Positions 1,386 through 53,869 of a DNA stretch of 64,000 bases are shown piece after piece. The notes under the pieces are model-generated. The model had not been told where the DNA came from, did not search any database, and saw only the letters and a list, made by a program, of their open reading frames with translations. The translations under genes were made by a program, and so were the position numbers. Numbering within the stretch: the first letter of the stretch is position 1; the number at the start of each line of letters is the position of its first letter. This stretch comes from Octopus vulgaris (lineage: Eukaryota): the NCBI GenBank assembly GCA_951406725.2, contig OX597821.1, forward strand, positions 43,028,001 through 43,092,000. Reading direction: 5' to 3'.

Positions 1386-4300
1386 TGATATCCAATGAAG
1401 TACAGATATCCCCGACAAAACACCATCATTGTACAATCATCACTTTTCAAAAGTCCTATGGCGATAGAGGCGTGGCGACGTATGCAGACTTGACCGGTTG
1501 GAAGCAGACAGTTACAAATCTGCACATAATGCGGCAGGGTTCTTATCTTAACATCGCTTATATGTTATCATGGACAGGAACTGTTTTCAGTGGAGAATCC
1601 TGTGTCTGAGCAGCCCTTTCAAGGAGAACACTGCTCACCTGGATATACTGGGAATGTGCTAAAAAAGGTGCCCTAAAAATTGTCTGTCCTCTCTCTGCTG
1701 GTTAGTTTACCGTGGCTAACGGTGGTTCAATTTAGCAGGAATGAACAAAGAATTGATACAAACAATGATAACAAGTATGCAAGGAATAAGGTTTCTCTTA
1801 ACCTGGCCTGTTGGAACGTGAGAACTCTTTTAGATCGAGCAGATAGGCCTGAAAGAAGAACAGCTCCAGTAACTAAGGAGCTAAGGCATCTTAATGTTGA
1901 TATTGCAGCTCTTTCTGAAACAAGATGTTCAGATGAAGATCATCTTGTCGAAAGAGCGGCAGGTTTCACATTATTCTGGATTGGAAAGCTGAAGGGAGAG
2001 AAAAGGGAAGGTGGTGTTGGGTTTGCAATTCGAAGTGATTTGCTAAAAGACCTTGAACAACCACAAAGCATAAATACACGTATAATGAAACTCCGGGTCC
2101 CTCTTTCTTGTGGACGTTTTGCAACTGTTTTCTATATTTATACTCCTACACTTTCAGCAAGTGAGCAAAATATCTATATGTTTTGTGGGAGCTTAGAAGA
2201 TGTATTCTCAGTCCCTTTGAATGAGAAGTTGGTTGTGCTTGGTGACTTTAATGCACTTGTTGGTAGAGACTATGGTGCTTGGAATGTACTTGGGCGTTAC
2301 GGAATAGGAAAGGTGAACAACAGTGGGTTGCATCTGCTACAAATGTGCTCTAAGCAAGGGTTGATTGTTGGGAATACTTTCTTTCATCATAAGATGAATC
2401 ATAAAGTTACCTAGATTCACCCAAGATCAAAGCGAAGTCACATGATTGACACATGGTTGACTTTGTATTAACTCGGAAAGCTGACTTACAAGATTTGTGC
2501 AGTCTCAGAATATTGCGAAGTGCTGATTGTGATACTGATCACAAAATGGTTAGGGCCAAGTTCAAGTTCAAGGTCCGTAAGAAGATTCGTAATACAGGTG
2601 TACGAGTACCAAAGAAAATTGATGTAGAGCAGCTAAAACAACCACAAGTTTTGCAGTTGTTTCAGAAGAAATGCAGCAATTTTCATTTTTAAGGTTCATG
2701 GCAATCTTTCCTTGATGGAATATATAAAATGGGATCAGATGTGTTAGGTTTTAAGAGTAGACAACGCCGAAATTTGTTTGATTCTAATGATACAGTGATA
2801 AATGAGCTTTTAGCAACAAAGAGGTCCACTCATGAAAAGCTTCTTGACCCAAACGGTAAGAACAAAGTGCAACTAGAAAAGTTGTACAAGTCTTAGAAAG
2901 CAAACTTGCAAAAGGAACTCAGGAGACTTAAAGACACTTGGTGGAGAAATTTTTCCAAGGAAGTACAGGCAGCCTATGACAGGTTATTAAAGATCCTGGA
3001 ATAATAAATAGATGGAAAGAACATTTTGCAGAATACGTTTGTAGTGGACATAGATATCATAAACACCATTCCGCAAAGAGAGATAGTGCAGCACATGGGT
3101 GATACACCATCCATTGAAGAGGTAAATCTGACATTATGTAAACTGAGATCAGGTAAAGCTCCTAGATTGGATGATATTCCAGTTGAAATTCTGAAAGCAG
3201 GTGGGGATCATATTTCATATGAAATTCATAACTTGATAACTCGATTTGGGAATGAATCTTCTGTGCCACAAGAATGGATAAATGGCATTCTAATCTCTGT
3301 ATACAAGGGTAAGGGCCCGAAGTCAGTGTAGCAATTCTAGAGGGATAACTCTTCTGGCACATACCGGAAAGATACTTTCAAAAATCATGTTAGATCGCCT
3401 TGTTGAGAATGTGTCCACATGTGATTCCTGAAGAACAGTGTGGTTTCAGACCCGAGTGAGGAATAATGGACAGAACGTGATATTTTCTATGAGGCAAGTT
3501 CAAGAGAAATGCTTAGAGGAACAAATGCCACTATACCAGATCTTCATAGATTTAACTAAGGCATTTGACACAGTGAACAGGGAAGCACTGTGGATTGTTT
3601 TGTGTAAACTTGATTGTCCAACACATTTTGTGAGCTCAGGTAGTCTTTAATGGTGAGCTATCTCATGACTTTTCGGTGGACAACGGTGTCAAACAGGGAG
3701 ATATTCTTGCCCCTACACTTTTCTCTATTTATTTTGATGCATTGCTTTGGCATGATTTCAAGGATTGCAACAGGGGAATCGGAATCAGATTTCGGACATC
3801 TGGTTGTATTTTTAAAATACTTTCAAAATACTTGTTAGAGAATTACTTTATGCTGATGATGCTGATTTATTGGCACACTCAGAGGAGAATACGCAACATT
3901 TAATGGACAGATTTTCCACTGCATGTGTACATTTCGGACTCACAATTAGTTTGGAGAAAAACAAAGTAATGTTTACTTCCGTACTAGGGCAAACATATTC
4001 TGAACCAAACATTTTTGTGAATGGAACAAGGTTAGAAGTCGTTGACACCTTTGTTTACCTAGGAAGCACACTGTCAAGAGATGGTAGTCTTGATGCAGAG
4101 ATATACTATCGAATAGGGAAGGGAATTGTTGCATTTGAAAAGCTAGAAAAGCGAGTATGGGCGGATAGAGGTATTTCCTTGAAGACAAAAATCAATGTCT
4201 GTAAAGCGTGTATATTGTCTGCACTTTTATATTCAAGTGCGACTTGGACCACTTACAAGCGTCATATAAAAATGCTGGAGAGATTTCATCAAAAGTGCTT

Positions 4301-4810
4301 TAGACGTATCTTAGGAGTCAAGAGGGAATGTTTCATACCAGATACAGAGGTTTTGCGCATGACACGTTGCAGCTCAGTTGAACAACATGTTATCTTGGCT
4401 CAAATGAGATGGACTGGACATGTTATTAGAATGAGAGACGAGCGTTTGCCAAAGCATCATTTTTATGGTGAAGCTCAACTCTGGTAAGTGACCACAACAT
4501 AATCCGAGGAAAAGGTATAAAGACTGGTTGAAGGAAGACCTGAAAAAACTAGATATGAACAAAAGTGATTGGACGTAAAAGATATAAGATAGTTTCACAA
4601 AAACATACTTTCAGTATCAGATTCCAAAAGGCAAAGATCCAGAAGAAACTTGAATAATGTTTGTCACTTGTGTTTTAAACCCTGTCAGTCAGCAGCTGGT
4701 CTTAAAAATCATCTCAGCGGTCATGAACGGAGTGATTGTACTGTGATGGGGTGTGGTGTGTGTGTGTTGATGAAACGGCTATCATCGCTCAAGATGAAGC
4801 AATCATCATA
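1383..4810 (+). mobile_element. Near full-length decayed RTE/BovB-type LINE (APE endonuclease, RT, C2H2 finger)
   Basis: ACWNVRTL, ALSETR, GDFNA, DTDH; RT motifs FIDLTKAFDTV, GVKQGDILAPTLF, LYADD; CHLCFKPC...HLSGH; stops and frameshifts; flanked by (TA)n. Confidence 0.92.
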
Positions 4811-19559: not shown

Positions 19560-20597
19560 TGTGTTTCTTTTTCTAGTTAATTTTAGTTAATTTTTGTTTA
19601 TTTTCAGATCATTAAAATGGAATGTCAAGTTAAGAAAAACGAGCATTTTCGACACCGCCTTCTTTTTGCTTTTAATCAAAGTTCTAAGGCCGCAAAAGCT
19701 GATCGTGACGTTTGTGCTGTGTATGGAGAGATGCCATAGCTGACAGAATCGCTCGTGATTGGTATGCCAAGTTCAAAAATGGAAATTTTGACCTCAAAGA
19801 CGCACCTCGTTCTGGCCGTCCAGTTGAGTTCGATGAAAAGCGATTAAATCAACTTTTGCACGAAAATTCTCGTCAAACCACAAGGGAACAGACAGAGAAA
19901 ATGGAATGCTCCCACACTGCTATAGTGAAGCATCTTCAATCGATGGGAAAGGTTCAGAAGTATGAAGCATTGGTTCCACATGCTTTAAATGACAACAACA
20001 AAAATCAACGAGCCACAATCTCCGCTGGTTTCCTTACTCATCACCGCTCAAGTCATGGACACAAGCAACGATTTCTTTACCGAATCGTTACTGGCGACAA
20101 AAAATGGTGCCTGTACATCAATATGAAGCAGCATAAGGAATAAACCTGGTAAGCAAGCGACACCGCGCGTGAAACAAAATCTTCATCGCGTAAAACGATG
20201 TTGTGCGTATGGTGAGACTGGGAAGGGATTATTCATTACGAATTGCTTGAACGGAACCAAACGGTCAACGCGGAACTCTATGTTCAACAGATGGAACGAC
20301 TGAATCCGTCCACACCCACCGTACTCTCCTGATTTGGCACCAACGGATTTCCACCTCTTTCAAATGCTATGTGCGGAGTTTCGTTCAATACTGATGCAGA
20401 ATTGGTTGGACCAATTTTTCGAGTCGAAATCGGGTGATTTCTACAACGAGGTATTGAAAATCTTGTTGAACGTTGGGAAGAAGTTGTAAACATCAAGGGT
20501 GAATACATTATTGATTAATTAGTTGTTATTTTTATTAAAACTTTTTAAAAATTAAAATTTTTTAAAAACCGGCGGGAACTTAGTTGCCAACCCAATA
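19560..20597 (+). mobile_element. Mariner transposon relic (transposase pseudogene 19617-20518, right TIR)
   Basis: MECQVKKNEHFRH..., FDLKDAPRSGRP, LVPHAL, IVTGDKKW, HPPYSPDLAPTDFHL, GEYIID*; internal deletion; terminus gaacttagttgccaacccaaTA; left TIR not seen. Confidence 0.9.
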
Positions 20598-20831: not shown

Positions 20832-22491
20832 CCATGTTTCCCCGAAAATAAAACCCGGTCCTATATCAATTTTGCATCCAAAAAACGCATTATGGCTTAT
20901 TTTCGGGGGGATGTCTTATATTTTTGCGGAAAAATCCAAGAAAAACAAAAGAGTCTCATGTCCTCGTGTAAAAGGGAAAAAAATTGTAAAAAGGAAATCT
21001 ATGTTTTTAGTTGTCAAAAGTTTATTTATTTGCTTACGGTTTTTAGTCAAATACAAACATTTCATCCTCTTTTGGAACACATTCATAAATCATCAAATTC
21101 CGAATTTCAGACTGAATTTCTTGCAAATCCATTTCCTGTAGAATCATGGACTCCAGTCATGTTTGGCAATAGAACTTTCTTTAAATGAATCCTTTTTGTC
21201 CAAGTATCCTGCTCGTTGTGCATTGGCAACGCAACTGTCGGTAATTTTATTCCATGAATTCTTCACCCAATTCACGATTTCTTGGAATTTGAGTTTGATA
21301 AAGTTTCCTCGCTGTTTTCTCTCCATTCTGTTTTCGATATATTCATTCACTTCCATCCGTAAATAATCCTTGAAGAGCTTGTTTATTACAAGATCTAATG
21401 TTTGTAGATATCAAGTCTTTCCCGTAGGAATCATTATGTGGTCAATTCCTCTTTCAGAAAGGAAGGTTTTCATATCGTTTGCGTGATGAGTACTGGCCGA
21501 ATCCTAGACTAAAAGACCTCTTTGAGAACCACATAAAACAAATGACATAGTTAAATCAACCCATTTTCTTGCGTGCACCAAGCCTTTTCCGTTTCAAGTT
21601 CCAGCATGACAAATTGCTAAAATACAAGTAACTCTTGCACTTTCTTAATCCGTTGAGGCAACGTTGATTGACGAGGCACTTGTCTGTTCAATTGTCGCTT
21701 TAGATCTTTGGCCCATAAATACTGCAGTCTCATCCATAGCAATTATATTGGATAGATTGTATTTAGAAAATTCGATGCCATCAACGAAGGACTTGAATGC
21801 AGGTGCACGTTGAATCACTTCAGTATCCTCCAGCTAGAACAGTGCTGTCGATCTTCTTAGAGAGAGCTCATATCGCCGAAGGAAGTTATCCAACCAATGA
21901 AGTGATGCTTTGAATATTTCTGGGGGTATATCCAACTGTGGTGCCATTGCAAGAGCAAATTCTTGAATATCAGCCCTACGTACAACCAAAGCCTTTGTTC
22001 TTCTGTCAGCAATCCATCCCAAGGTAATAACTTCCAGATCCGAAAATAACGGTTGTCGACCTGATCCACACTTGCGCTTCTTAGCACTTCCCTCATCCAC
22101 CTGTCTGATGAGATTATCCTACTCTGCTCGCCATTTTCGAACCATTCGGAGATCCATCTTCTTCTTAGAGAAAGCCGTAAGGTTCTTGTTATGTGACTCT
22201 TCCACAATCCCTTTCTTGTACTCCACGGAATAACTCTTTCTTTTTGCACTCATCTTGCCTCGGGAAAAAAAGGAGTCAAACCAGGGCAGACAACTCCGTG
22301 CATGCGCGCTTAGCGCAGACTTTAACCAAGCTTCGGTAATTGGTTTATTTTGCAAACATCACATGGCTTTGCTAACAAGCTGATGCATTTTTGACTAGGT
22401 CTTATTTTCGGGGAAGGGTTTCTATTAAATACATCCTGAAATAAAATGGTAGGGCATATTTTCGGAGTAGGTCTTATTTTGGGGGAAACAC

Positions 22492-23600: not shown

Positions 23601-24195
23601 TACATATGTGGAAAATCGGTGTGTGTTTGTTTGTGGCGTCGTTAGCAAACTCCCCTACATCGTTTTATTGATTTTGATGAAACTCGACACGTGAGTAGAA
23701 CTCATGTCTGGAAATCTCGTGACAAATCGATAATAGGGCCCTTCCAATGGATCCTTCTATCTACTGCATACTACTAATATTTTATTTAAACAACCCATTT
23801 TAGCGAAGCGATCAGTGTTTGATTCTCATGATCAGCCGACCTAATTCTGCATTTCACTACTCACAGTTTTGAACTGCTAAACATTATTATTGCACTTCCT
23901 TAATTTGAATCTTAAACATTAAAGACTTCATTCATACATTTCTATACATACATACTTTTTTGAATGCTCATTACTCCGATAATTCTGCATTTTTATAGTT
24001 GCACTTTTTCCATGACAGTAGATATATTTTTTATTCTACAACGTATTTGTAGTGGCTTGTACATGTTTGCACTTTTTCGTGACGGAAAATACACTTTTTG
24101 TGGCAGTTATAACGAAATTTCTTTCTTATATCACAGTAATAAGGCATTTCAACAGAACATCTTCACCCCCGGGAATTACCGGGTACACTAGCTAG
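23594..24195 (+). mobile_element. Non-autonomous Helitron, family 2 (short copy)
   Basis: 5' tatactacatatgtggaaaatcggtgtgtgtttg; 3' hairpin cccgggaattaccggg then CTAG|T; flanked by (TA)n. Confidence 0.8.
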
Positions 24196-24255
<60 letters not shown>

Positions 24256-29376: not shown

Positions 29377-30090
29377 AATAAAATTCCAAGCAGCGGGGCA
29401 AAATGAGTACGAACACGAACAAGACGTAACAATAAAACTGCAAAAATAAAAATACATGTACAAAAAATACAATTAATTACAAAACGAGAAAATAAAAAGG
29501 TCTTCGCCAGCAAAAGGCTTTTTCGTTCGTCCCCTTGTGTGTTTGATTTCCTGTATCGTTTTCTCTTTTTATTTTCTCGTTTTGTAATTAATTGTATTTT
29601 TTGTACATGTATTTTTATTTTTGCAGTTTTATTGTTTGTCTATGCCAGAAAAAAAGGCTTTTTCGTTCGTCCTCTTGTGTGTTTGATTTCCTGTATCGTA
29701 TTCTCTTTTTATTTTCTCGTATTGTAATTAATTGTATTTTTTGTACATGTATTTTTATTTTTGCAGTTTTATTGTTACGTCTTGTTCGTGTTCGTACTCA
29801 TTTTGCCCCGCTGCTTGGAATTTTATTTTAATTCTCTCGCAGGAAGGCCTATTGGATTAGTGTTCTGTCTCTGCCTTCGAAACATGCCTGACTCCACTAG
29901 CGACAGCTGATGACGGGGATTTTGTCCTTGTGTAGCTCGTCCTGTAATTGTTTTTCGTTTTCTTGTTTTTTGTTTTTTTGTTTTTTCCGTTTCTACGTCT
30001 TATTGTGATGTCCTGTACTCACGTATAATTATTTATATATGCATGTATATATACATGTAGATGTAGGTACGTACATATATGTTTGTATGT
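29377..30090. repeat. Inverted plus tandem duplication with degenerate hammerhead-like motifs (Penelope-like terminus)
   Basis: Arms 29377-29499 / 29705-29827; tandem units 29500-29637 / 29638-29775; gaaggc..gccttcGAAAC at ~29843-29883; CTGATGA at 29907. Confidence 0.7.
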
Positions 30091-30189: not shown

Positions 30190-30238
<49 letters not shown>

Positions 30239-30286
30239 AGGGAAGAAATGGAGCCGAACGAAGATTCTACAAAATTCCTTTTTATT

Positions 30287-30371
30287 ATTTTCTACACATG
30301 TTTCAAAGGCTGCAAATTCCCAAATTCGGATTGAATAAGGAGACCTTTCTGCAGCTTTTCTTCAGGAAAAT
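30287..30371 (-). ncRNA. Type I hammerhead ribozyme motif (inverted copy)
   Basis: Reverse complement of the 31046-31131 motif with a 1-nt deletion at the base of stem II; core intact. Confidence 0.7.
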
Positions 30372-31045
30372 CCAGGAATTTAAAATCTCAAAACAGATGC
30401 GCAGCAAGCTTTTCGAACAAAACGCTCCCTAGGAGCCCATGGTAAAAATGGCACAAAACTGAAAAAAATTGTTTGGAAGGAATTTGGGAAAAATTTTGAA
30501 TTAAATTTGAAAGGGGAAATTACTCCCCTTTTAGCGTATGTTCTGCTACTTTTTTAGAAACAATATCAGGGATTATACTCCCCTTGTTTTTGACAAGTCA
30601 TCTGTATATAAACTGGTCATAGACGAACACACAGACACAGAATTTTATCAGCCGCTTGACCAGCATTGCCTACAATACAATATATTTTCTCTCTAGCTGC
30701 TTCCTAACATACTGCCACACATACATAGGTGCATACACACACACATACATGTACGTAGTTCCTCACACCCAAATAAGATAGCTGTCATTCTTAAAACAAT
30801 TTGAACATTAACACTAGTTATACAGAATATATTCACACTCTTTGGGTTTTGTGTGATTCTTCCCCTACCTGATTTGACCGTGGTTTGACCTAGGTTTATT
30901 CCAACGGATTTTTCGTCGGCCTTCACCCACTCTGACGTCAGCGCATATTGAGAGACAGTTTTGTGCCATTTTTACCATGGGCTCCTAGGGAGCGTTTTGT
31001 TCGAAAAGCTTGCTGCGCATCTGTTTTGAGATTTTAAATTCCTGG

Positions 31046-31131
31046 ATTTTCCTGAAGAGAAAGCTGCAGAAAGGTCTCCTTATTCAATCCGAATTTGGGA
31101 ATTTGCAGCCTTTGAAACATGTGTAGAAAAT
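31046..31131 (+). ncRNA. Type I hammerhead ribozyme motif
   Basis: Stem I attttc/gaaaat; CUGAAGA 31052-31058; stem II gaaagcugca/ugcagccuuu; GAAA 31114-31117; stem III AC-augu-GU; predicted cleavage after GUA at 31125; AATAAA immediately downstream. Confidence 0.75.
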
Positions 31132-31338
31132 AATAAAAAGGAATTTTGTAGAATCTTCGTTCGGCTCCATTTCTTCCCTTCACTAAATATATAAAACTCA
31201 ATTATCCGCGCTAAAGCACGGGGGCGAAACCCCATGGTCGTAACCTCAACCGTGTCTTTTCTGGTGTGATTTTTGCTACACAGGTATCGGTTAAATTTTG
31301 AATAATCCGTAACAAGATAATTCATTTATCCATTTCAT

Positions 31339-31397
<59 letters not shown>

Positions 31398-31615: not shown

Positions 31616-31692
<77 letters not shown>

Positions 31693-31716
31693 CATATACA
31701 TATACATATACATATA

Positions 31717-32845
31717 CTAGCTGGTGTACCCAGTAATTCCCGGGGGTAACGATGTTCTATTGAAATGCCATATTAGTCTGATATAAGAAAGCAATTTCGT
31801 TATAACTACCATAAAATGTGTATTTTCCGTCACGAAAAATTACAAAAAACTGTCAGCTGAAGGAGGGAGAGATTGTTGGAGGTTGGCGAGAGAGGTTTTC
31901 GGAGGTTAGCGAGAAATATTGTCGGAGGTTGGCGAGAGGCAAAGCCACTATTCTGCTTAGCGAAGGCACCTGGGAAATGTATAACTGCAGTCATTCACAG
32001 AAAAAAATATTGTTTTACTGTGAGTAAAGCGCTGTTGAAGTGTTAAGTGAAATTTGGCAATCGAGGATCTAATCCACGCTATGCCTGCATGAAGCCACTA
32101 CAAATACGTTGTGGAATAAAAAAAAATTATCTACTGTCATGGAAAAAGTGTAACTATAAAAATGCAGAATTATCGGAGTAATGGGCATTCAAAAAAGTAT
32201 GTATGTATAGAAATGTATGAATGAAGTCTTTAATGTTTAAGATTCAAATTAAGGAAGTGCATTAATAATGTTTAGCAGTTCAAAACTGTGAGTAGTGAAA
32301 TGCAGAATTTGGTCGGCTGACCGTGAGAATCAAATATTGATCGCTTTGCTAAAATCTGCAGGTGTTAAGAGTTATTTCCCTTGGGTTGTTTAAATAAAAT
32401 ATTAGTAATATGTAGTAGATAGAAGGATCCACTGGAAGGGCTCTATTATCGATTTTTTCAAGAATCTAAGTATGTCACAAGGTTTCCAGACATGAGTTCT
32501 ACTCACATGTCAAATAAAGTATAAAAATGATATTGTCTGCAAAACTTAGAAATTGGACACACAAAAAATCAATATTCAAAGTAATCAAACATAAACAATG
32601 AAATGGGTTATTTTCCTTGAGTGTTTAAAAAAATACTGTACAGGTACTATGGGTTATTTCCCTTGGGTGTTTAAAAAAATTAGTTATATGAGGTAGATAT
32701 AAAGGTATTATCGAGTTTTTTCAACAATCTAAGTATGTCACATTTTACTAACGTGTCAAGTTTCATCAAAATCAATGAAACGATGTAGGAGGAGTTAGCT
32801 AACAACGCCACAAACAAACATACACCGATTTTCAACATATGCACA
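31717..32845 (-). mobile_element. Non-autonomous Helitron, family 2 (long copy)
   Basis: A|CTAGctggtgtacccagtaattcccggg terminus; homologous in reverse complement to 23594-24195, with extra internal blocks. Confidence 0.8.
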
Positions 32846-35076: not shown

Positions 35077-35196
35077 GTTTCAATAGAACATGGTGCAACA
35101 CACTGTGGGATACTGCTTTGTGTTGGCCTCAGACACTAGCCAATGTCGTTGTAACTCTACAGTGTCCCAAGAACATTCCCGGAGTAAACACAAAAC
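35077..35196 (+). CDS. GPCR exon: hormone-binding domain (C..LWD..LCWP...CP)
   Basis: ttag|GTTTC...AAAC|gtaagt; 120 nt; [39 protein letters not shown]. Confidence 0.92.
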
Positions 35197-38100
35197 GTAA
35201 GTAATATTTACTGCTATTAGTAAACATCATATACCATTCTTTTATTTTTTTTGGGGGGTGGGGGGAGGTAATAATCAACGTGGAGGCACATGGCCTAGTG
35301 GTTAGAGCAGCAGACTCGCGGTCGAGGGATTGCGGGTTCGAATCTCAGACCGGGCGATGTGTGTGTTTATGAGCGAAATACCTAAGCTCCATGCAGCTCC
35401 GGCCCGGCAAAAGGTAATGGTGAACTTCTGCTAACTCTTTCGCCACAACTTTCTCTCACTCTTTCCTCCTGCATATTGCAGCTCACCTGCGACAGACCGG
35501 CGTCCCGTCCAGGTGGGGAACCTATACGCCAAGGAAACCGGGAAACCGGCCCTATGAGCCAGGCATGGCTTGAGAAGGAACAAACAATAATAATCAACAT
35601 TCATCCACATATCTTATGATGGAGGATGAATGAGAAAAATGATAGCTGAATGGATAAGGTGTCACACTATCTGGTCGGTCGACGGGTTGACGGTTCGTAT
35701 TGCGTTGCCGCCACCACACTGTCCATAACCAAATATTTATCTCTTGATAGTTTAGTAAATCTAAAAATAAAGAGATAAAACTGCAAATTAGATGTTTATA
35801 ACCAACAGCTCTTTATTGGTTTGCAATGGTGAGTTCAGATCCTCCTTCTTGCTTGAAAATAAGAGAAATTGTCGACAGTATTCATCCTCGAACATTTCTA
35901 TTTTAGTTTTTTGTATTTTCTGAACAACAGATCTGTCGTGGGTTATCGGTTTCTAATGGATTAATCATTGGTTCATTACATTTAGTATAGAAGGAGTGAA
36001 TTGGGATTATCTGTACAACACAAGAGGAGAATATCACAAGGACTTCATTTGATAGCACGTGGTTTTTCGGTTCTGTCGCTTATGTTTACAACTTTTACCG
36101 TGATACGTACCTGGAACAGACGCACACACCAGAACCATGTGCTTCCCAAGTAAACCCCTTACCTATACAGTCAGTCTCCCAAGGTCCCCTTATCAACTCA
36201 GTCCATTTTCCTATGAGATTCAAATCCAATCTCAATTAATAATAAGACCAACACTCAGATATCTGGGTCAGCTAGTCTTTGTAATATTGGTTTCACATTT
36301 TGGCACAAGGCCAGCAATGTCAGGGAGAGGCTTAGTCGATTACATTGATCCTAGTGTTTAACTGGTACTTATTGAAATGAACTTCATGCAGGCATAGCGT
36401 AGATTTGATCCTCAATCGCCAACTTTCACTTAACAGTTCAACGGCACTTTTCTTTTTTTCTTCTTAATTTAGTTGTAGTAATTTAATTCTAGTACTAGAG
36501 GTATTGAATTCAAAACTATGTTGGGAAGATGGTAGATTTTCTTGTGGTAGATTACTACCACGTCATCTGCTGAACATTGAGACTTTAGTGCAATGATATC
36601 CACAGAAGCAATATGTTTAAGATATAAATGACAAAGGGTATTCGTCTGAAGGCAGTATTTCTCTTAATTTAATTAGCAATGCTTAAATTAATAAATAATA
36701 ATTATGCAGTGAAGAAAAGACAACTTTACTCCCAATGACTAATATTATATAATTCAGTAATGTTAACTCATTGTTGCTTTTTTCCTTCTAGAGAATGCTA
36801 CACGTGTTTGCGATGAGAACGGCACCTGGAACGAAAAGGCGAACTATACCTCCTGTTTCACAGATGATTATAAAATAAATGTAACATCAATTTTAGCTTT
36901 CAACGTATGTTTCTTAATAGTTGCATCATTACCACCAAACTTTTGTTTATAAATTTATTTATTCATTTATTTATATTTATATTTACTGAAATTATCAAAT
37001 AGTTTGCTCTTCTTACATTTTACTTTCTATTCTTTACTATTTTATTTGGTAGAGAAATCACAATTCAGCAGGTCGGTGGAGTTCTTAAATTAAAAAATAT
37101 ACAATTACCCGTAAGTCACACCAGGCACCTACTTCCAAAATATGACTGTAGAGACGAAGACACTTGCACATTGGTCCAGTGGTTTACGAAGCTGAGGTCA
37201 CTTCAGTTCTAAAGGTTAAAAAAAAGTATATTGGTCTGTGTGAAAGTGATTTTTAAAAGCAGATGTGCAAATAACCAGTCTTCTTTCCCGTATATCCAAG
37301 GATATTGGATCTAAGACCAACTATGTCTCACACAGGCATCGTAGAACGATCCACTTCATACATTAATGTGTTAAGGAGGTGCAGAACCTACTGAATTCTA
37401 GATCGGATATTTTCACTAAATGCAAGCACCTGGATAAGTTTCTATTATCTAACTGGAGAGCACCACCCTCTCTGTATTAAGCATAGAGTTTCACAGACTT
37501 TAATCTGTTCCTGTCGAATATGTTCCAGACTTTAATCTGTTCCACGCCAACCATTGTTAATTCCCATTCTTACAAACTCAAAGGACACAACTCTTATCTC
37601 CCTTCCTTCCACACTTTTCTCTTGTTTCCTTTCCTCATTTATTTTTTCCTCTCGTTCTTTCTCATTTTTTCTCAGAGAACAGCCATGCTGTATTTTGAAA
37701 CTAAAAGACTGTCCCTGATAGTACACGGCACGCTATACAACCAATTAAGCAAATCTGTGTGTATGTGTGCGTGTGTGTGTATCTGTCTGTCTGTGTCTGT
37801 GAGTGTGTGTGTGTACACACACATATATATATAGTCAATTCAAAAAACAAACAATTAAAAAATAGAAAATAGAAGAAAACGAATGTGCGGACACGCACAT
37901 GAAATATATTAATTTTAGACTCAGTGAAAGGAAAGAGTTGTTAACGTTTCGAGCATAGCACTTCGTCGCAAAGAGAAAAGTCCAAAGAGAAAGAAGGAAA
38001 ATAAGGAAAAATCGCCAACAATCCACGTGCAGCTCCACGTGTGTATGTATATGTGTATATATATATATATATCCACACACACATACTGCACCCCCCCACA

Positions 38101-39137: not shown

Positions 39138-42100
39138 TGTATGTATGTATGTATGTATGTATGTATGTATGTATGTATGTATGTTTGTATGTATGTGTAT
39201 ATGTGTGTGTGTATGTGTGTGTGTGTGTGTGAGTGTGTGTGTGTGTGTGTGTGTATGTGTGTGTGTGTGTGTGTGTGTACAGAGAGAGAGAGTGGTGAGA
39301 CATATGTGTCCATTACTCTTGGACAATATATCTTGCTGGGACACGTCATGAATGATGTAACCTGGGGTCATTAAAGGTGATCATCGTGTCAGGCTGCAGC
39401 GATGTTGGTACTACAATAATTTTATACCCATTTGTTTTAACCAGGGGCGATGAAATAATCAGTTTCGGTTCAGAATTTGATCCCTAAATGTGAGAATGTG
39501 ATAGGATTCATTAGTATAAAGTAGGCAGGGTTTCTTGTTACCTTGGTATGGTTGTACGTGTGAGGGTATTTTCTAATTGATATTAAGTGGTGTATTTTTA
39601 TATAGTAATGCTCGTATATGATTGGCTTAACTGACTGGCCAAAGCTTCCAAGATACTATCACTCTTATTCTTGTTTAAGAAAAATATATGCGTGCATGGC
39701 TGTATGTATAACAGTATTGAGCATTGTGATGAATAAAGAAATTAATACATAATACTTAGATTACTGTCATATCATAATATCAATTTGTGATGTTATAACT
39801 GTTGTTTTTATTTTTGTTTTCGTATATTTACTTTTCCTTCAACTTTATCCAATTTCATCGTAATAATTTTTTAAAATTAATTTCGTGTCTCTTGCAGGAA
39901 GAAAACCACAGAAATATCAGCGATCTTATCATTAACATAATCTACCATTTTGGTTTTTGCATCTCAACGGTGGCTCTTGCGGTGGCTTTCTGCATATTCT
40001 CTGGATTCAGGTAGATTTTGGCAGATAAACTGTATGCACGACTACTGAGAATTGACATTCTCTCTCTGTTCTCTCATCGCACACATATACGTACATGCAT
40101 TCTCTCCATTTCTCTCTGTTCTCTCTTTCTCTCTCTCTCTCTCTCACTTCATTTCTCACTGTATTTGTGTGTGCGCGACGCATGTGAAGTACTGACTGAC
40201 AGACAGAAGAAAGCGTACTTAATTCCATAGTAAAGATTAATAATGTCTTGATCGCATTAGCCTTGCTGCTCGAGACTTTTGCCTCTGGACTCACGGAGTT
40301 ATGAGACAAGTTATGACTAGACACTTTTTCATAAAATTTATTCATACATACATACCTATACAGGATTCCTGTCAACGGATGGAGGAAGGTGATGGAAGAA
40401 AGAAAAAGAAAAATGAGGGAAAACCGAAGAGAAAAAGAAACAAAATGGAAGACAGAGAAATAAAACAGGATTAAGAGGAAAATAAGTTACAGTGGGAAGA
40501 TATTAAATCGATAAATGAATTAAATAGAAATAAAATAAGATATAATATTAATTACATCAAGTTGAATGGGTAACAATGGGATGTGATTATTTTAAAAGTT
40601 TTATATATATACGGTGGTTGTCTACTCCCTATGCAGACTTTGACCACCTCTGTACTTACACCTTAGAACCATCATGGTGTCTGATGTGGCTTTTAAAACC
40701 AGATAATGTATTGAAAAGACACCCACATAATTTGCATATCTGATTTGGACCACCAAGAGTTGTAGTTAAGTTCTAATCTTTGTGGATCTTAAAATGTCTT
40801 TTGAGGCTTTTGTTAGATTTGCAGACCTTATGGCATACATGGCATTGAAAGGTGTGCACTGACATATAGGCAGAATAGTTGGTGGAGGTTCGTTTTTCAT
40901 GGGTCTGCAAATGAGATTTGAACCCAGCAAAAGAAAGGCATGATCTGTCACAAACTGTGCAGTACAAAAAGGTCATAGTGATTCACTTTCTCGATCGTAA
41001 CATTTTTCTTTAAATCTCTCTTGAGTCTTGCATGCATTATCCTGGCCCCTTCAAACACTTTCACTCCACTCCACACTACTGTTCGCCATCCAGCTCGATC
41101 ACAAGCAAGGGCTTCTATATCCTCTGGATCCATTCCAAGTGACTTCATAGTAGTCCTTATGCCGTCCTTAAACCTCTTTTTAGGTTTACACCGATAGCGT
41201 TTCCCCTCTACAAGCTCACCATAAAACAGTTGTTTGGGCATGCGTTCATCCGCCATTCGAACAATATGGCCACACCATCTCATTTGATTTTTCAGAATCA
41301 TTGCCTCTAGGCGCAAGGACATCTGTGTTTTGGAGCAAAAGAACACCATTTAATGTTTAAAATGCGATGAAGGCATTTTTGGTGGAATTGTTCTAATTTG
41401 AAATGTCTTTCATAGCATGTCCATGTTTCAGAAGAATACAAAAGGGATGGTGGTAAGACAAACGATTAGTAAAGAGCCAATTTTGTATTGTTATTTATAT
41501 GTCGTTGGTACCAAACTCGTGACTTCAAACCACCAAATGCTTGTGCTTCCCTTTGAATTCGCAGATGCATTTCAGTGTCCAAATTTCCATCATTTTGTAC
41601 AGAGCTTCCAAGGTAGATGAAAGAATCAACAACTTCAAGTAACTTACCCTTAACAAAACTTTTAGGTGGGTTGCAAACAGCACCACATGTAGGTTGATAC
41701 TTTACAACTGTTTTTTTTTAAGTTGATGGTCAAGTCAAAATCGTCACAAATACTAGAGATTGCAGAAATGTTTCAGAATGACTGACTAGATCGCAGTCGT
41801 GCGTATATCAGTTCCCTAATGAGTGGAGTAAAAACCTTCGTTTTTGAATTTCAGTCTGGTCAGATAAAAAACATTCCCTGTTCGCTATTTTATGTAAATG
41901 CTCTCCTCGGAGTTTTGAAAAGCGTGTTACAGCACAACAGCAAAGTATATTGCAAAGAGGGTAAGTGCATCAAGGTCTCCTTGTTTTACTCCATTTTCCA
42001 CAGCAAAAGATTCAGTGAGCCTACCACCAAAATTAACTCTAGCTTTCATATCTTGATACAAATCCCTGATCATGTTTACAAATTTTTATGGGTAACTTGT

Positions 42101-43898
42101 TTTGCTTAAAATTAGCCACAGAGCATTTCGGTTAACAGTATCGAATGCTTTGCTCATATCAACAAAGTAATGGTACAGGGCAAGATTCTGTTCAATGCAC
42201 TTTCCCCGAAATTGTCTGATAGTAAAGATACAATCAGCTGTGCCCTTGGAGGAGCGAAAACACATTGAGACTCACACACCATATTTGGAACTATGAAGGT
42301 ATTTAAACAGTCTAAAGTTCCTTTCCAACCACAGACAAAAGCGAAATCCCACGAAAATTATTGCACAGATCCTTTTGGCCCCGATTTATACAAGGAGACT
42401 AAAATGGCATTAATCCATGTCTTGAGGCACTTTCTCAGTTCTTCAACAGTGATAAATTAATATATTTAAGAGTTCAAACATTTTGTCACCCCCATATTTT
42501 AAGACCTCTACACAGATTCCATCAGACCCTGGAAACTTATTGTTATTCAGCTTATTCACAGCTAAACGAATGTCATTTAGGGTTGGTTGAAATGCTATCT
42601 CCTCTATAACTGGAAGGTGTTCGATTTTTTTCTATCATCCTCATGTCAGCGGATGATGGTCTATTCAAAAGTGAAACCCTTATGAATAGAAGCGGTGTCA
42701 GTCAGAAGCAAATGTCCATTTGCTGTTCTCACCGGAGCTATTGAAGAAGATTTGAGCCCATATACCTCCTTAACATAAGAGTATCAACCCTTGGCGGCAT
42801 TCCTATCAGCTGTTTCTTGTGCCCCATTTGCTCTATCATTCCACCATTCCTGTTTAATTTTCCTTAGAGCAGTCTGCACTTTCCCTTTCAGTTGTCTGTA
42901 AGCTTCGTTTGATTTGGGATTCAAGGACTAAGGAAGAATTATATTGCCTAAGTTTTGTTTTTCTAAAAGTAGATCATGAATTTCTGCTGATTTGTCTGAA
43001 AACCAGTTACTGGACTTATGCAATTTATATCCCACCGACGAAGTTGCAGCCTGAAATACTTTTGTTTTGAAATCTTCCCATAGATTTGGGTCAAAATTGA
43101 TACTTTCTATAGAATCTTGGAATCTTTGCAAGTTGCTTAGTAATTTGAAGTTTGCAACATTTAACTTTTTCGGTACCTTATGACCAGACTGTTGACTTCT
43201 AAGCATTATCGAAAAATTTATTTTTCTACGCATTAGACGATGGTCAGTCCAGCTCTTTGCTCCTCTCATGACCCGAACACTAGAAACATCTTTCATATCA
43301 CGCTTTCTGATCAAAATATAATCTATGAGATGCCAGTCCTTAGATCTTGGGTGCAACCAGGTGGTTTTATATTGATTTTTCTGCTTAAATAGACTGTTGG
43401 TAACAACCAGATTATTCTCAATACAAAGCGTCAAAAGAGCTACTCCATTTTTATTACATTTCCCATGAAACATAGTCATTTCCAATTCTTGCGTTGAAAT
43501 TTCCCAATATGACTAGCTTGTCAGAAATTGGTACTTTCCTCAGCAATTGTGCTAGATCGTCATAAAATTGTCCTCCAATTTAATTAGAATGAGACATTGT
43601 TGGTGCGTAAAAACAACGGTAAGAAGCCTACCTTTTGTCAGTTTTATACGACATAACATGGTTCGTTCAGAAATACCACTTGGAGATTCTTCAATGGAGG
43701 ATAGTAATAAATTCTTAAGAGCAAACCCAACACAAGATTCTCTATGCTGGCCCTCAGGCAGGCCTTTCCCGAAGGTAGTATATCCATAAGTAGGTTCATT
43801 TATTTGACCCTCACCAGAGATACGAGTTTTAGAGTGCAATTATATCAAGGGAATATTTTTTAAGCTCACGTGCAATAAGTACAGTACGCCTTTCTGCT

Positions 43899-52100: not shown

Positions 52101-53869
52101 TTTGAAAATAAGATAAAAATTTTTAATGCAAATTACATGTCTATCAGAAGTGTTTCCCAATTTGGAATACTATAAAATTATGTATAATGACAAGAATAAA
52201 CATTTTAATTGTGAATGGTACAATGAAGAAGGAAAAGTGTTTAAGAATTTGTTTTTCCCAAAAATATGAATTCTAAATTATTCAGAACATTCATTACTCT
52301 AAAAAACAAACCCCGAGAAATAGCAAAAAGAAAAGAAAAAATAATCTTTTTAATCATAGTAGCTACTCTGAAGGCACAATGTGGGGGCAGGACTGAGACA
52401 TTTGAAAAATATGGATTTAAAAGGAAAATTCTTTTTAAACTATTTACAAGTGTTTTGCAATATGGAGTACTTTAAAATTCACCCTAAATCCTGTACCTAT
52501 CCCTCACCCCAGGAAATTCCATTTTATTTGTAAAAGCTATTTCAAAAGTCCTAACCAAAACGAGATTGTCAAGTGGCCAAGCCACTATGAATACAAGTTA
52601 ACAGACGAAGACTGTGTGGGGTTTGCATTCTATACACAGGGTTGCAATTTATTCCTGATAAACATAATTATCTCTGAACAGCCAGTTCTAGATGACTTAT
52701 TAATTGCAATAAACACTTACAGAATTGCATAATGAAAATGATTTCGTCAGTTTGCAATGTAGAGCTTTTGATTCTTCTATGGTCAACTGAATTCAATCGG
52801 CTGGTTGAGCAGTTAATGGCTTACTCACTTGAGTGAATAATTAAATGAAAAGATAGGGGAGAGAGAGTACAGAAGGCATGAAAGGACCGTTGAATGAGTA
52901 AGTATTCAAGTAAATAAATGAGTGATTAAGAAAAGGAAAATTTACAAAGGTTATAAAAAATATTTGGCAGAGTATTCTCTTAAAGTTAAATATGAAATTT
53001 TAAATCAAATTAATATTGCACTGTTTGTACTCATAAAAGTTTATTTATTAAACAGTACTAATCTTATGCCCATTGTCTTCTATCTCTAGTGGTTATGTAA
53101 AGCTTTGGTGACAGCTTTCAATTACTTCCAGAGTACAAACTTCTATTGGATGTTTGTCGAAGGTCTCCACTTACACATGATTGTCGTTTGGACGTATTCT
53201 TCAGAAAAACTCCAGCTTTGGCATTTCAAACTAATAGGATGGGGTAAGTAATATTTGTCAAGCATTGTGCATATGCTTTTAGAGGGAATGTATGTGTATC
53301 TGTGTTTGTGCATTTGCCTATGTGTATCTGTGTAAGTCTATCATAGCTAGAATTATTCATTAAGATAATGACTTTCTCTCTATGGGTGCAATCTATCTAT
53401 ACTATAATCAGGACCGGATTTATGAATGGGCAGAGGGGGAAATTGCCCCAAGCATCTAGATATCGGGGGGTTGGGAGCACTGCTAGGAGGATATGTAGCA
53501 CTCAATACAGGAATCAGGCATGAAAAGAGTGTCTTTCAATATACAAAGGTATCTTGACTTCTTAAAAAATGGATTCTCTTTTAGGACAGCCACTTTAGAG
53601 ACATCAAATAATTCAATTAAAAAAACAGTCCCAAAGCACTTCCCAAGGAAATTGTAGCTGCTTTTGGGATGGAAAAGGGAAACAACAGAACACTCCTGAA
53701 AATGTATGTCTGTATGTATCTGTGAGTGTATGTGTGTTTGTGTGTGTATGTAAGTATAAATGTATATAAAGATAAAGAGATTGATAGAAAAATGTTATTG
53801 TCTCCAGGCTAAATTCCTTCTTTCAAAGCATGACTGAGCTTGACCTTGGCTTGACCATTATTGGTTAAA

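What the first reader, a model, noticed from the sequence alone, without database searches (positions are those of the whole stretch)
30233..31185. Two intact-core hammerhead ribozymes in a 230-bp inverted repeat upstream of the receptor exons
Seen: arms 30233-30461 and 30956-31185 differ by about one indel. Each carries a full hammerhead: 6-bp stem I, CUGAAGA, a long stem II with an internal attc/gaat hairpin, GAAA, a 2-bp stem III overlapping the palindrome ACAUGU, a GUA cleavage triplet, then AATAAA. Known: Penelope-like elements and retrozymes carry type I hammerheads with tiny palindromic stem III that are thought to cleave as dimers, and coleoids have extensive ADAR editing. Inference: a transcript from either strand would contain one sense ribozyme plus its full antisense. 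If this lies in the GPCR pre-mRNA, self-cleavage at 31125 would compete with a 230-bp editable duplex.
Basis: partly seen in the sequence, partly recalled or inferred. Interest (0 to 1): 0.85.

Follow-up and report, generated by a model that had tools for sequence, protein, structure and literature searches.

The report
Octopus retrotransposon end with paired hammerheads
The two hammerhead motifs belong to the 3' end of a common octopus Penelope-like retrotransposon that sits, with an inverted piece of itself, in an intron of a hormone-receptor gene; they are predicted to be locked in a long RNA duplex and so likely do not cut the receptor RNA, but the element's lineage is unusual in lacking the cysteine motif thought to guide such elements into TA repeats.

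Summary
In detail: the arms 30233-30461 and 30956-31185 differ by one base, and each carries a type I hammerhead core. The whole stretch 30233-31342 is one insertion of a Penelope-like element (PLE) into a (TA)n repeat: a 5'-truncated 3'UTR (30462-31342, +) joined to an inverted shorter copy. A near full-length copy encodes a 907-aa telomerase-like RT plus GIY-YIG-type endonuclease. The genome holds 7,324 matches to this hammerhead pattern (control 5), and 9 divergent pairs occur among the first 100 listed; such opposite-strand pairs are already published. Stem II covaries and helix III stays self-complementary across subfamilies, as expected for a dimer ribozyme. The insertion lies in the 54.5-kb first coding intron of a CRF-receptor-like gene, in sense. 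A cleavage/editing switch is unlikely: no compatible sense partner lies in the gene, and the duplex is predicted to win by about 125 kcal/mol and to form first. Editing is plausible but untested. What is new is modest: a Hydra-related lineage with many open ORFs, lacking the CxCX5C linker yet ending in (TA)n, with a 52-56 nt stem II and a 155-nt tail.

The parts
30196..30232 (.). (TA)n target repeat, left side of the insertion
   Evidence: sequence; copies end in TA runs
30233..30461 (-). inverted, 5'-truncated copy of the element's 3'UTR, ending at the 'short' 3' end (no tail)
30272..30381 (-). hammerhead of the inverted copy (C3 30365, G12 30304, A17 30293); lacks G10.1
30462..31342 (+). main copy: PLE 3'UTR, 5'-truncated about 40 nt after the ORF stop, ending at the 'long' 3' end; holds no ORF
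   Evidence: 97% match to L046 downstream of its 907-aa ORF
31036..31146 (+). type I hammerhead: outer stem 31036-43/31139-46, stem I 31046-51/31126-31, core 31052-58 and 31114-17, stem II 31059-31113, helix III unit 31117-24, predicted cut 31125/31126
31072..31072 (+). base shared only by the two arms of this insertion (mirror position in the left arm)
   Evidence: 26-mer with this base: 2 matches in the genome, both here; common form 106 matches
31186..31342 (+). [quoted passage not shown]
31343..31394 (.). (TA)n target repeat, right side
35078..35197 (+). second coding exon of the CRF-receptor-like class B GPCR, 3.7 kb downstream; first coding exon lies 19.4 kb before the window (G000:C8:43008554-43008617)

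Best explanation
30233-31342 is a truncated insertion of a Penelope-like retrotransposon in a (TA)n repeat within the first coding intron of a CRF-receptor-like gene, its two hammerheads are the element's own 3'UTR ribozyme motif copied once per arm, and at this locus they are likely silent because the arms are predicted to pair into a 229-bp duplex. Inferred mechanism of origin: the element's endonuclease nicked both strands of the TA repeat; one nick primed reverse transcription at the long 3' end and the other at the short 3' end of RNA from one source copy; both cDNAs stopped early and were joined head to head. Inferred job of the ribozyme: in tandem or two-pLTR source transcripts two copies pair through the self-complementary helix III and cut at GUA/GUC to process the precursor, perhaps with help from the element's protein. 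Inferred fate here: the antisense arm is made first, captures the sense arm as it emerges, and the intronic hairpin is a likely but unremarkable ADAR substrate that is spliced out.
For: Shown: 54 matches at 95-100% from 40 scored of 1,961 candidates. L046 has inverted copy + upstream repeat + 907-aa ORF + 3'UTR, three hammerheads. The predicted fold's best PDB matches are telomerase RTs; the C-terminal part matches atlas clusters, one with GIY-YIG on 11% of members. 7,324 pattern matches vs 5 control; 9 divergent pairs among the first 100 listed. 21 of 21 loci with both ends scored have one long and one short end, of 40 loci examined. Arms share a base found nowhere else; pooled arm-arm difference 1.4% vs 2.2% to other loci, lower in 13 of 19 loci. 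34 of 38 RT-anchored loci with an endonuclease match carry the hammerhead. Stem II: 7 of 12 pairs with changes on both sides. Helix III: 60 of 85 perfect palindromes, 21 with two G.U. Predicted: dimer -42.2 vs two monomers -35.0 kcal/mol; duplex 124.8 kcal/mol below the ribozyme fold. Published: opposite-strand pairs 100-700 bp apart and no monomer cleavage for a minimal PLE hammerhead (PMC4209133); inverted 5' copies and one-ended tails (PMC8557442).
Against: No cleavage, expression or editing was measured. Two of five covariation measures did not beat the shuffles (59/500 and 52/500), kin can inflate the others, and the outermost stem I pair fails in 17 of 24. The 3' end behind the ribozyme is as conserved (0.82) as the ribozyme body (0.80), so conservation is not unique to it. 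In 6 of 19 loci the arms were not closer to each other than to other copies, and shared bases could also come from conversion inside the hairpin. The end-pairing count is biased because 20 of the 40 loci were picked with a query holding the long end. Pfam and PDB sequence searches gave no RT or GIY-YIG hit. Folding energies ignore proteins, polymerase speed and editing, which could unwind the duplex.
Confidence: 0.9

Rival explanations
1. One reading: cleavage at 31125 competes with the duplex, and ADAR editing that loosens the duplex would free the ribozyme and change receptor output.
For: The element is in the pre-mRNA in sense. Without the left arm the ribozyme fold costs only 4.7 kcal/mol. 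The arms hold 62 and 81 adenosines. Octopus has high hyper-editing and lizard Penelope copies are heavily edited (PMC5625713, passages).
Against: Duplex favoured by 125 kcal/mol and predicted to form first; monomer active fold 0.3%; the only other sense motif in the gene has an incompatible helix III (-0.4 kcal/mol); editing would also hit core adenosines (inference); the insertion is young (arms differ by one base) and the layout is common.
Confidence: 0.04
2. The hammerhead of this subfamily no longer cleaves at all and is kept as an RNA structure for protein binding or RNA pairing.
For: G.U instead of G-C at 10.1-11.1 in 5 of 24 representatives including this one; two G.U pairs weaken helix III (-6.0 vs -10.3 kcal/mol); the long stem II leaves no usual loop 1-loop 2 contact (inference); in the anole PLE, core mutants did not affect insertion in vitro and no RNA-seq ends were found at the cut site (PMC11167929).
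Against: 10 of 11 core positions invariant in 21 representatives while the upstream UTR averages 0.56 identity; position 7 and position 17 vary only as the core rule allows; G.U at 10.1 also occurs in published Hydra hammerheads.
Confidence: 0.2
3. The stretch is a DNA transposon or MITE with 230-bp terminal inverted repeats, or an assembly artefact.
For: Near-perfect inverted repeats flanked by TA.
Against: The right copy runs 157 nt beyond the repeat; inverted arms of other copies have many different lengths; upstream sequence in longer copies is an RT ORF; many other loci show the same layout.
Confidence: 0.01

Closest known systems
Hydra clade of C-terminal EN+ Penelope-like elements (Craig et al. 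2021, PMC8557442), including Hydra-1_Obim and Penelope-13_HM
   Same: RT then C-terminal GIY-YIG-type domain; DKT; no CCHH; C-terminal CxxC and CxH; (TA)n targets; hammerhead near the 3' end; Penelope-13_HM is listed with a 5'-truncated inverted copy and a hammerhead on both strands.
   Different: No CxCX5C linker (present in all 99 other homologues that reach the C-terminal CxxC); RWL for RWK; 3.6-3.7 kb unit rather than under 3 kb; stem II of 52-56 nt against loops of 3-10 nt in the listed Hydra hammerheads; tail about 155 nt against 30-40. Hydra-1_Obim keeps its cysteine motif and has a different hammerhead.
Metazoan PLE hammerheads (Cervera and De la Pena 2014, PMC4209133)
   Same: Type I, tiny palindromic helix III, dimer design, mostly solitary in truncated copies, some pairs on opposite strands 100-700 bp apart.
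   Different: Much longer stem II; G.U at 10.1-11.1 in this subfamily; 8-nt self-complementary unit.
Poseidon element of Anolis carolinensis (Frangieh et al. 2024, PMC11167929)
   Same: Two RT start sites that define a tail; AT-rich targets; both strands nicked and extended; hammerhead that needed protein to cut.
   Different: Other clade; there the ORF starts inside the hammerhead, here the hammerhead is about 300 nt before the next ORF.
Non-LTR retrozymes (PMC7229834; bioRxiv 10.64898/2026.07.22.740005)
   Same: Type I hammerhead of PLE affinity.
   Different: Retrozymes are short head-to-tail non-coding repeats; this is an inverted, truncated copy of a coding element.

Membership tests
Type I hammerhead ribozyme | CUGANGA, GAAA and NUH core joined by stems I-III | tested here: met
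   left arm lacks G10.1
Type I hammerhead ribozyme | compensatory changes in the stems | tested here: met
   stem II 7 of 12 pairs, stem I 2 of 6; 86% of cells paired vs 39-46% when slid; 2 of 5 measures not above shuffles
Type I hammerhead ribozyme | Rfam hammerhead model match | tested here: not met
   none among 101 matches at E<=1
Type I hammerhead ribozyme | self-cleavage | not testable with these tools
   needs in vitro assay or raw RNA reads
Penelope-like elements, EN+ | telomerase-like RT | tested here: met
   best Foldseek matches are telomerase RTs, E 1.2e-8; no Pfam or PDB sequence hit
Penelope-like elements, EN+ | C-terminal GIY-YIG endonuclease in the same ORF | tested here: met
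   AIY..YIG motif and alignment to homologues; atlas cluster with GIY-YIG on 11% of members, a lead only
Penelope-like elements, EN+ | pseudo-LTRs, tandem and inverted copies, one-ended tail | tested here: met
   L046 layout; tandem arrays L066, L067
Hydra clade | DKT motif | tested here: met
   SDKT
Hydra clade | RWK motif | tested here: inconclusive
   RWL here; 89 of 121 proteins have RWK, close relatives RWR or RWM
Hydra clade | CCHH absent; CxxC and CxH near the C-terminus | tested here: met
Hydra clade | CxCX5C linker before the endonuclease | tested here: not met
   absent in all three frames in 36 of 36 loci where the linker could be measured, of 41 examined; replaced by a collinear cysteine-free segment
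Hydra clade | (TA)n targets and hammerhead | tested here: met
Hydra clade | generally under 3 kb | tested here: not met
   unit 3.6-3.7 kb
Hydra clade | RT tree places it inside the clade | tested here: inconclusive
   nested among CxCX5C-bearing homologues (support 0.97), but midpoint root, 45 of 120 homologues, no published Hydra sequence and no outgroup. Filed as Hydra-related, not as a member.
Non-LTR retrozymes | short head-to-tail non-coding repeats each with a hammerhead | tested here: not met
   inverted layout, coding parent

The most novel reading that the evidence does not exclude
In this octopus lineage the hammerhead's self-complementary helix III is an RNA dimerisation device: it pairs two copies of the element's 3' end so that both nicked strands of a TA repeat get a template from one source, which would explain why two-armed insertions have one long and one short end and share private bases; and the lineage finds (TA)n without the zinc-finger-like linker proposed to do that job. 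Mutating the catalytic core would not test this; breaking and restoring the palindrome would. Against it: Naiad elements make inverted insertions without canonical hammerheads (PMC8557442). The linker part alone is much more likely (about 0.7) than the dimerisation part.
Probability: 0.12. Interest if true: 0.7.

Novelty: new variant of a known kind. Interest (0 to 1): 0.3.

Why it matters
The locus itself is ordinary: one of an estimated several hundred inverted two-hammerhead insertions in this genome. The lineage is useful. It has many open 899-908 aa ORFs and ends in (TA)n without the CxCX5C linker, while a second young family in the same genome keeps the motif; the pair offers a direct test of the published idea that this linker steers microsatellite targeting. 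Its graded subfamilies also show a self-complementary helix III kept through several sequence changes, natural support for the dimer model of PLE hammerheads. Its self-inverted copies are a candidate source of the dsRNA behind octopus hyper-editing (untested).

Tried and rejected
Rfam: no hammerhead hit. Pfam on P0001 and on four homologues, and PDB sequence searches: no RT or GIY-YIG hit. Sequencing runs: no RNA holder listed; all 24 runs are contigs. Contigs of X1, X5, X7, X16 laid on 30240-31340 come from many copies, no listed piece spans the stretch or bridges the 30461/30462 joint, none shows this locus's base at 31072, and contigs cannot show ends, strand or editing; not used for or against. 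The constrained energies used an outer stem off by one base; redone (its duplex-timing and helix III rows do not use that stem). RNAalifold recovered only stem II, not stems I or III. Search of the gene span (G000:C8:42998001-43132000) for a second copy of this lineage: none by blastn; six loose motif hits, of which three look like unrelated hammerheads and three were not followed. AATAAA as a poly(A) signal: present in 66 of 85 copies within 16 nt of the cut but in an AT-rich loop and varied in others; left open. MITE and retrozyme readings rejected. Earlier scan findings: two look-ups, nothing. Literature: five searches gave no paper on this lineage; Repbase, Dfam and subscription journals were not searchable, so it may already be catalogued.

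Full report
Observation. The arms match base for base except G31059, which the left arm lacks. Both carry CUGAAGA, GAAA and a GUA triplet with a 6-bp stem I. My descriptor found these two and nothing else in 64 kb; 100 shuffles gave 0.08 loose hits per window and no strict hit. Rfam listed no hammerhead. The missing base is G10.1; 44 of 45 copies counted have it.

What it is. The right arm and its flank match the window's own genome many times: 1,961 candidates, 40 scored, 54 matches at 95-100%. The spacer between the arms is part of the same repeat. Longer copies continue upstream into an ORF; L046 holds an inverted copy, an upstream repeat, a 907-aa ORF and a 3'UTR, with three hammerheads. 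The window copy starts about 40 nt after the stop codon, so it holds no coding sequence. The protein has 420 homologues at E<=0.001. Pfam and PDB sequence searches gave nothing, but the predicted fold (mean pLDDT 79.5) matches telomerase RTs best, and the C-terminal part resembles atlas clusters, one carrying GIY-YIG on 11% of members. A 160-aa RT query gave 7,140 candidates, 150 scored, many with open frames of 899-908 aa and identical scores, some in 3.62-kb tandem arrays: the lineage is young and probably active (inference). A hammerhead pattern matched 7,324 times against 5 for the reversed control; among the first 100 listed, 9 pairs point away from each other within 3 kb, which extrapolates to several hundred loci like this one.

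How the insertion arose. Copies end at two fixed points, 31185-89 and 31342, each followed by (TA)n. Of 40 loci examined, 21 showed both ends, and all 21 had one long and one short end (20 of the 40 were picked with a query holding the long end, and 19 showed only one end or none). The two arms here share a base at 31072: the 26-mer with it occurs twice in 2.8 Gb, both in this insertion, the common form 106 times. Over 19 two-armed loci, arms differ by 1.4% against 2.2% to other loci, closer in 13 of 19. I infer one event with both target strands primed on RNA from one source; conversion within the hairpin is an untested alternative. Inverted 5' copies and a tail at one end are described for PLEs (PMC8557442), and two RT start sites define the tail in the anole element (PMC11167929).

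Is the ribozyme real? Of 41 loci picked by RT similarity or as the full copy, 38 had an endonuclease match and 34 of these had the hammerhead; the other four ran into unrelated sequence. In 21 representatives (five loci dropped: four without the motif, one with a deletion) 10 of 11 core positions were invariant, against 5% invariant columns upstream; the segment 3' of the ribozyme was as conserved as its body. In 24 representatives 86.4% of cells paired (shuffles 80.2, slid 39-46), 38 cells had two-sided changes (0/500 shuffles), while two measures were not above shuffles and the outer stem I pair mostly failed. Of 85 motifs in 71 loci (some overlapping), the helix III unit was a perfect palindrome in 60, self-complementary with two G.U in 21, and neither in 4; four different words and two lengths occur (the search fixed the first three letters). 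Folding predicts 0.3% active monomer and a dimer 7 kcal/mol below two monomers. This fits the published dimer model, where a single minimal motif did not cleave (PMC4209133).

The receptor. An exon at 53096 matched a protein named corticotropin-releasing factor receptor 2 of Octopus sinensis at 100%, with 7tm_2 and HRM domains. Seven exons lie on + in the window from 35078 on; residues 1-22 map 19.4 kb before the window, followed by a GT donor, and the acceptor is at 35076-77. The element is thus in a 54,460-nt intron, main copy in sense. On that transcript the antisense arm comes first; 97 of 97 possible inter-arm pairs are predicted by the time C3 appears, and forcing the ribozyme fold costs 124.8 kcal/mol, against 4.7 without the left arm. 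No second copy of this lineage was found in the gene span; an unrelated sense motif 40 kb upstream has an incompatible helix III. I conclude that cleavage here is unlikely and the hairpin is a plausible editing substrate; neither was measured.

Comparison. The protein has Hydra-clade marks (DKT, no CCHH, CxxC, CxH; PMC8557442 section 11) but lacks CxCX5C, which the other 99 of 100 proteins reaching the C-terminal CxxC have (121 examined). The loss holds in 36 of 36 measurable loci; an asparagine-rich linker of 127-184 aa, largely disordered in the model, ends in a conserved cysteine-free segment collinear with the motif. A second young family in this genome keeps the motif and has a 12-nt stem II motif. 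The RT tree nests the cysteine-free lineage among motif-bearing homologues, without outgroup or published sequences. I file it as a PLE, Hydra-related, not as a Hydra member. The published Hydra-1_Obim is a different family, and Penelope-13_HM already shows an inverted copy with hammerheads on both strands.

Papers seen. PMC8557442: passages, section 11, supplement part 2 of 59 and search hits in it; unread parts may bear on linker variants. PMC4209133 and PMC11167929: parts 1-2 of 4, no supplements. bioRxiv 10.64898/2026.07.22.740005: part 1 of 5; its supplements are closed. PMC5625713 and PMC7229834: passages. Hammerhead numbering and the loop 1-loop 2 contact are from PMC4209133 and my own knowledge.

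Verdict. Real feature, known kind of arrangement, little reason to see gene regulation; a modestly new variant lineage. Interest 0.3.

Noticed in passing
L088:321-410 (G000:C8:43018321, same intron, + strand): An unrelated hammerhead-like motif with an 8-bp stem II base, about 55-nt insert and self-complementary helix III, but a weak stem I.
   Followed up: partly
L086:7509 and L086:97, - strand (upstream of the first coding exon): Two near-identical hammerheads with long stem II and palindromic helix III, beside a broken Hydra-type RT (45% to P0001) and a LINE; long stem II may be common in octopus PLEs.
   Followed up: partly
L143-L180: A second young, high-copy Hydra-type family that keeps CxCX5C, has a 12-nt stem II motif, kilobases of simple repeats after the ORF and a 5.7-kb tandem period.
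   Followed up: partly
L066, L067: Head-to-tail arrays of the 899-aa subfamily, 3.62-kb period, with identical hammerheads: natural dimer substrates.
   Followed up: partly
window 29400-29800: A local inverted and direct duplication of about 100-200 bp just left of the insertion; weak match to a plant miRNA model, probably chance.
   Followed up: no
window 23797-24234 with 31678-32355: Another dispersed repeat in inverted orientation (236 nt at 95%, 169 nt at 89%), about 8 kb apart in the same intron: more potential dsRNA.
   Followed up: no
window 1677-4484 (+), 41349-43839 (-), 19709-20140 (+), 21147-22358 (-): Broken LINE-type RT/endonuclease remnants and transposase-like fragments (names from recalled motifs, no family search).
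   Followed up: no
G000:C18:34104513-34307005: A paralogous CRF-receptor-like gene, with a match to the CxCX5C family at 34299765 inside its span.
   Followed up: no
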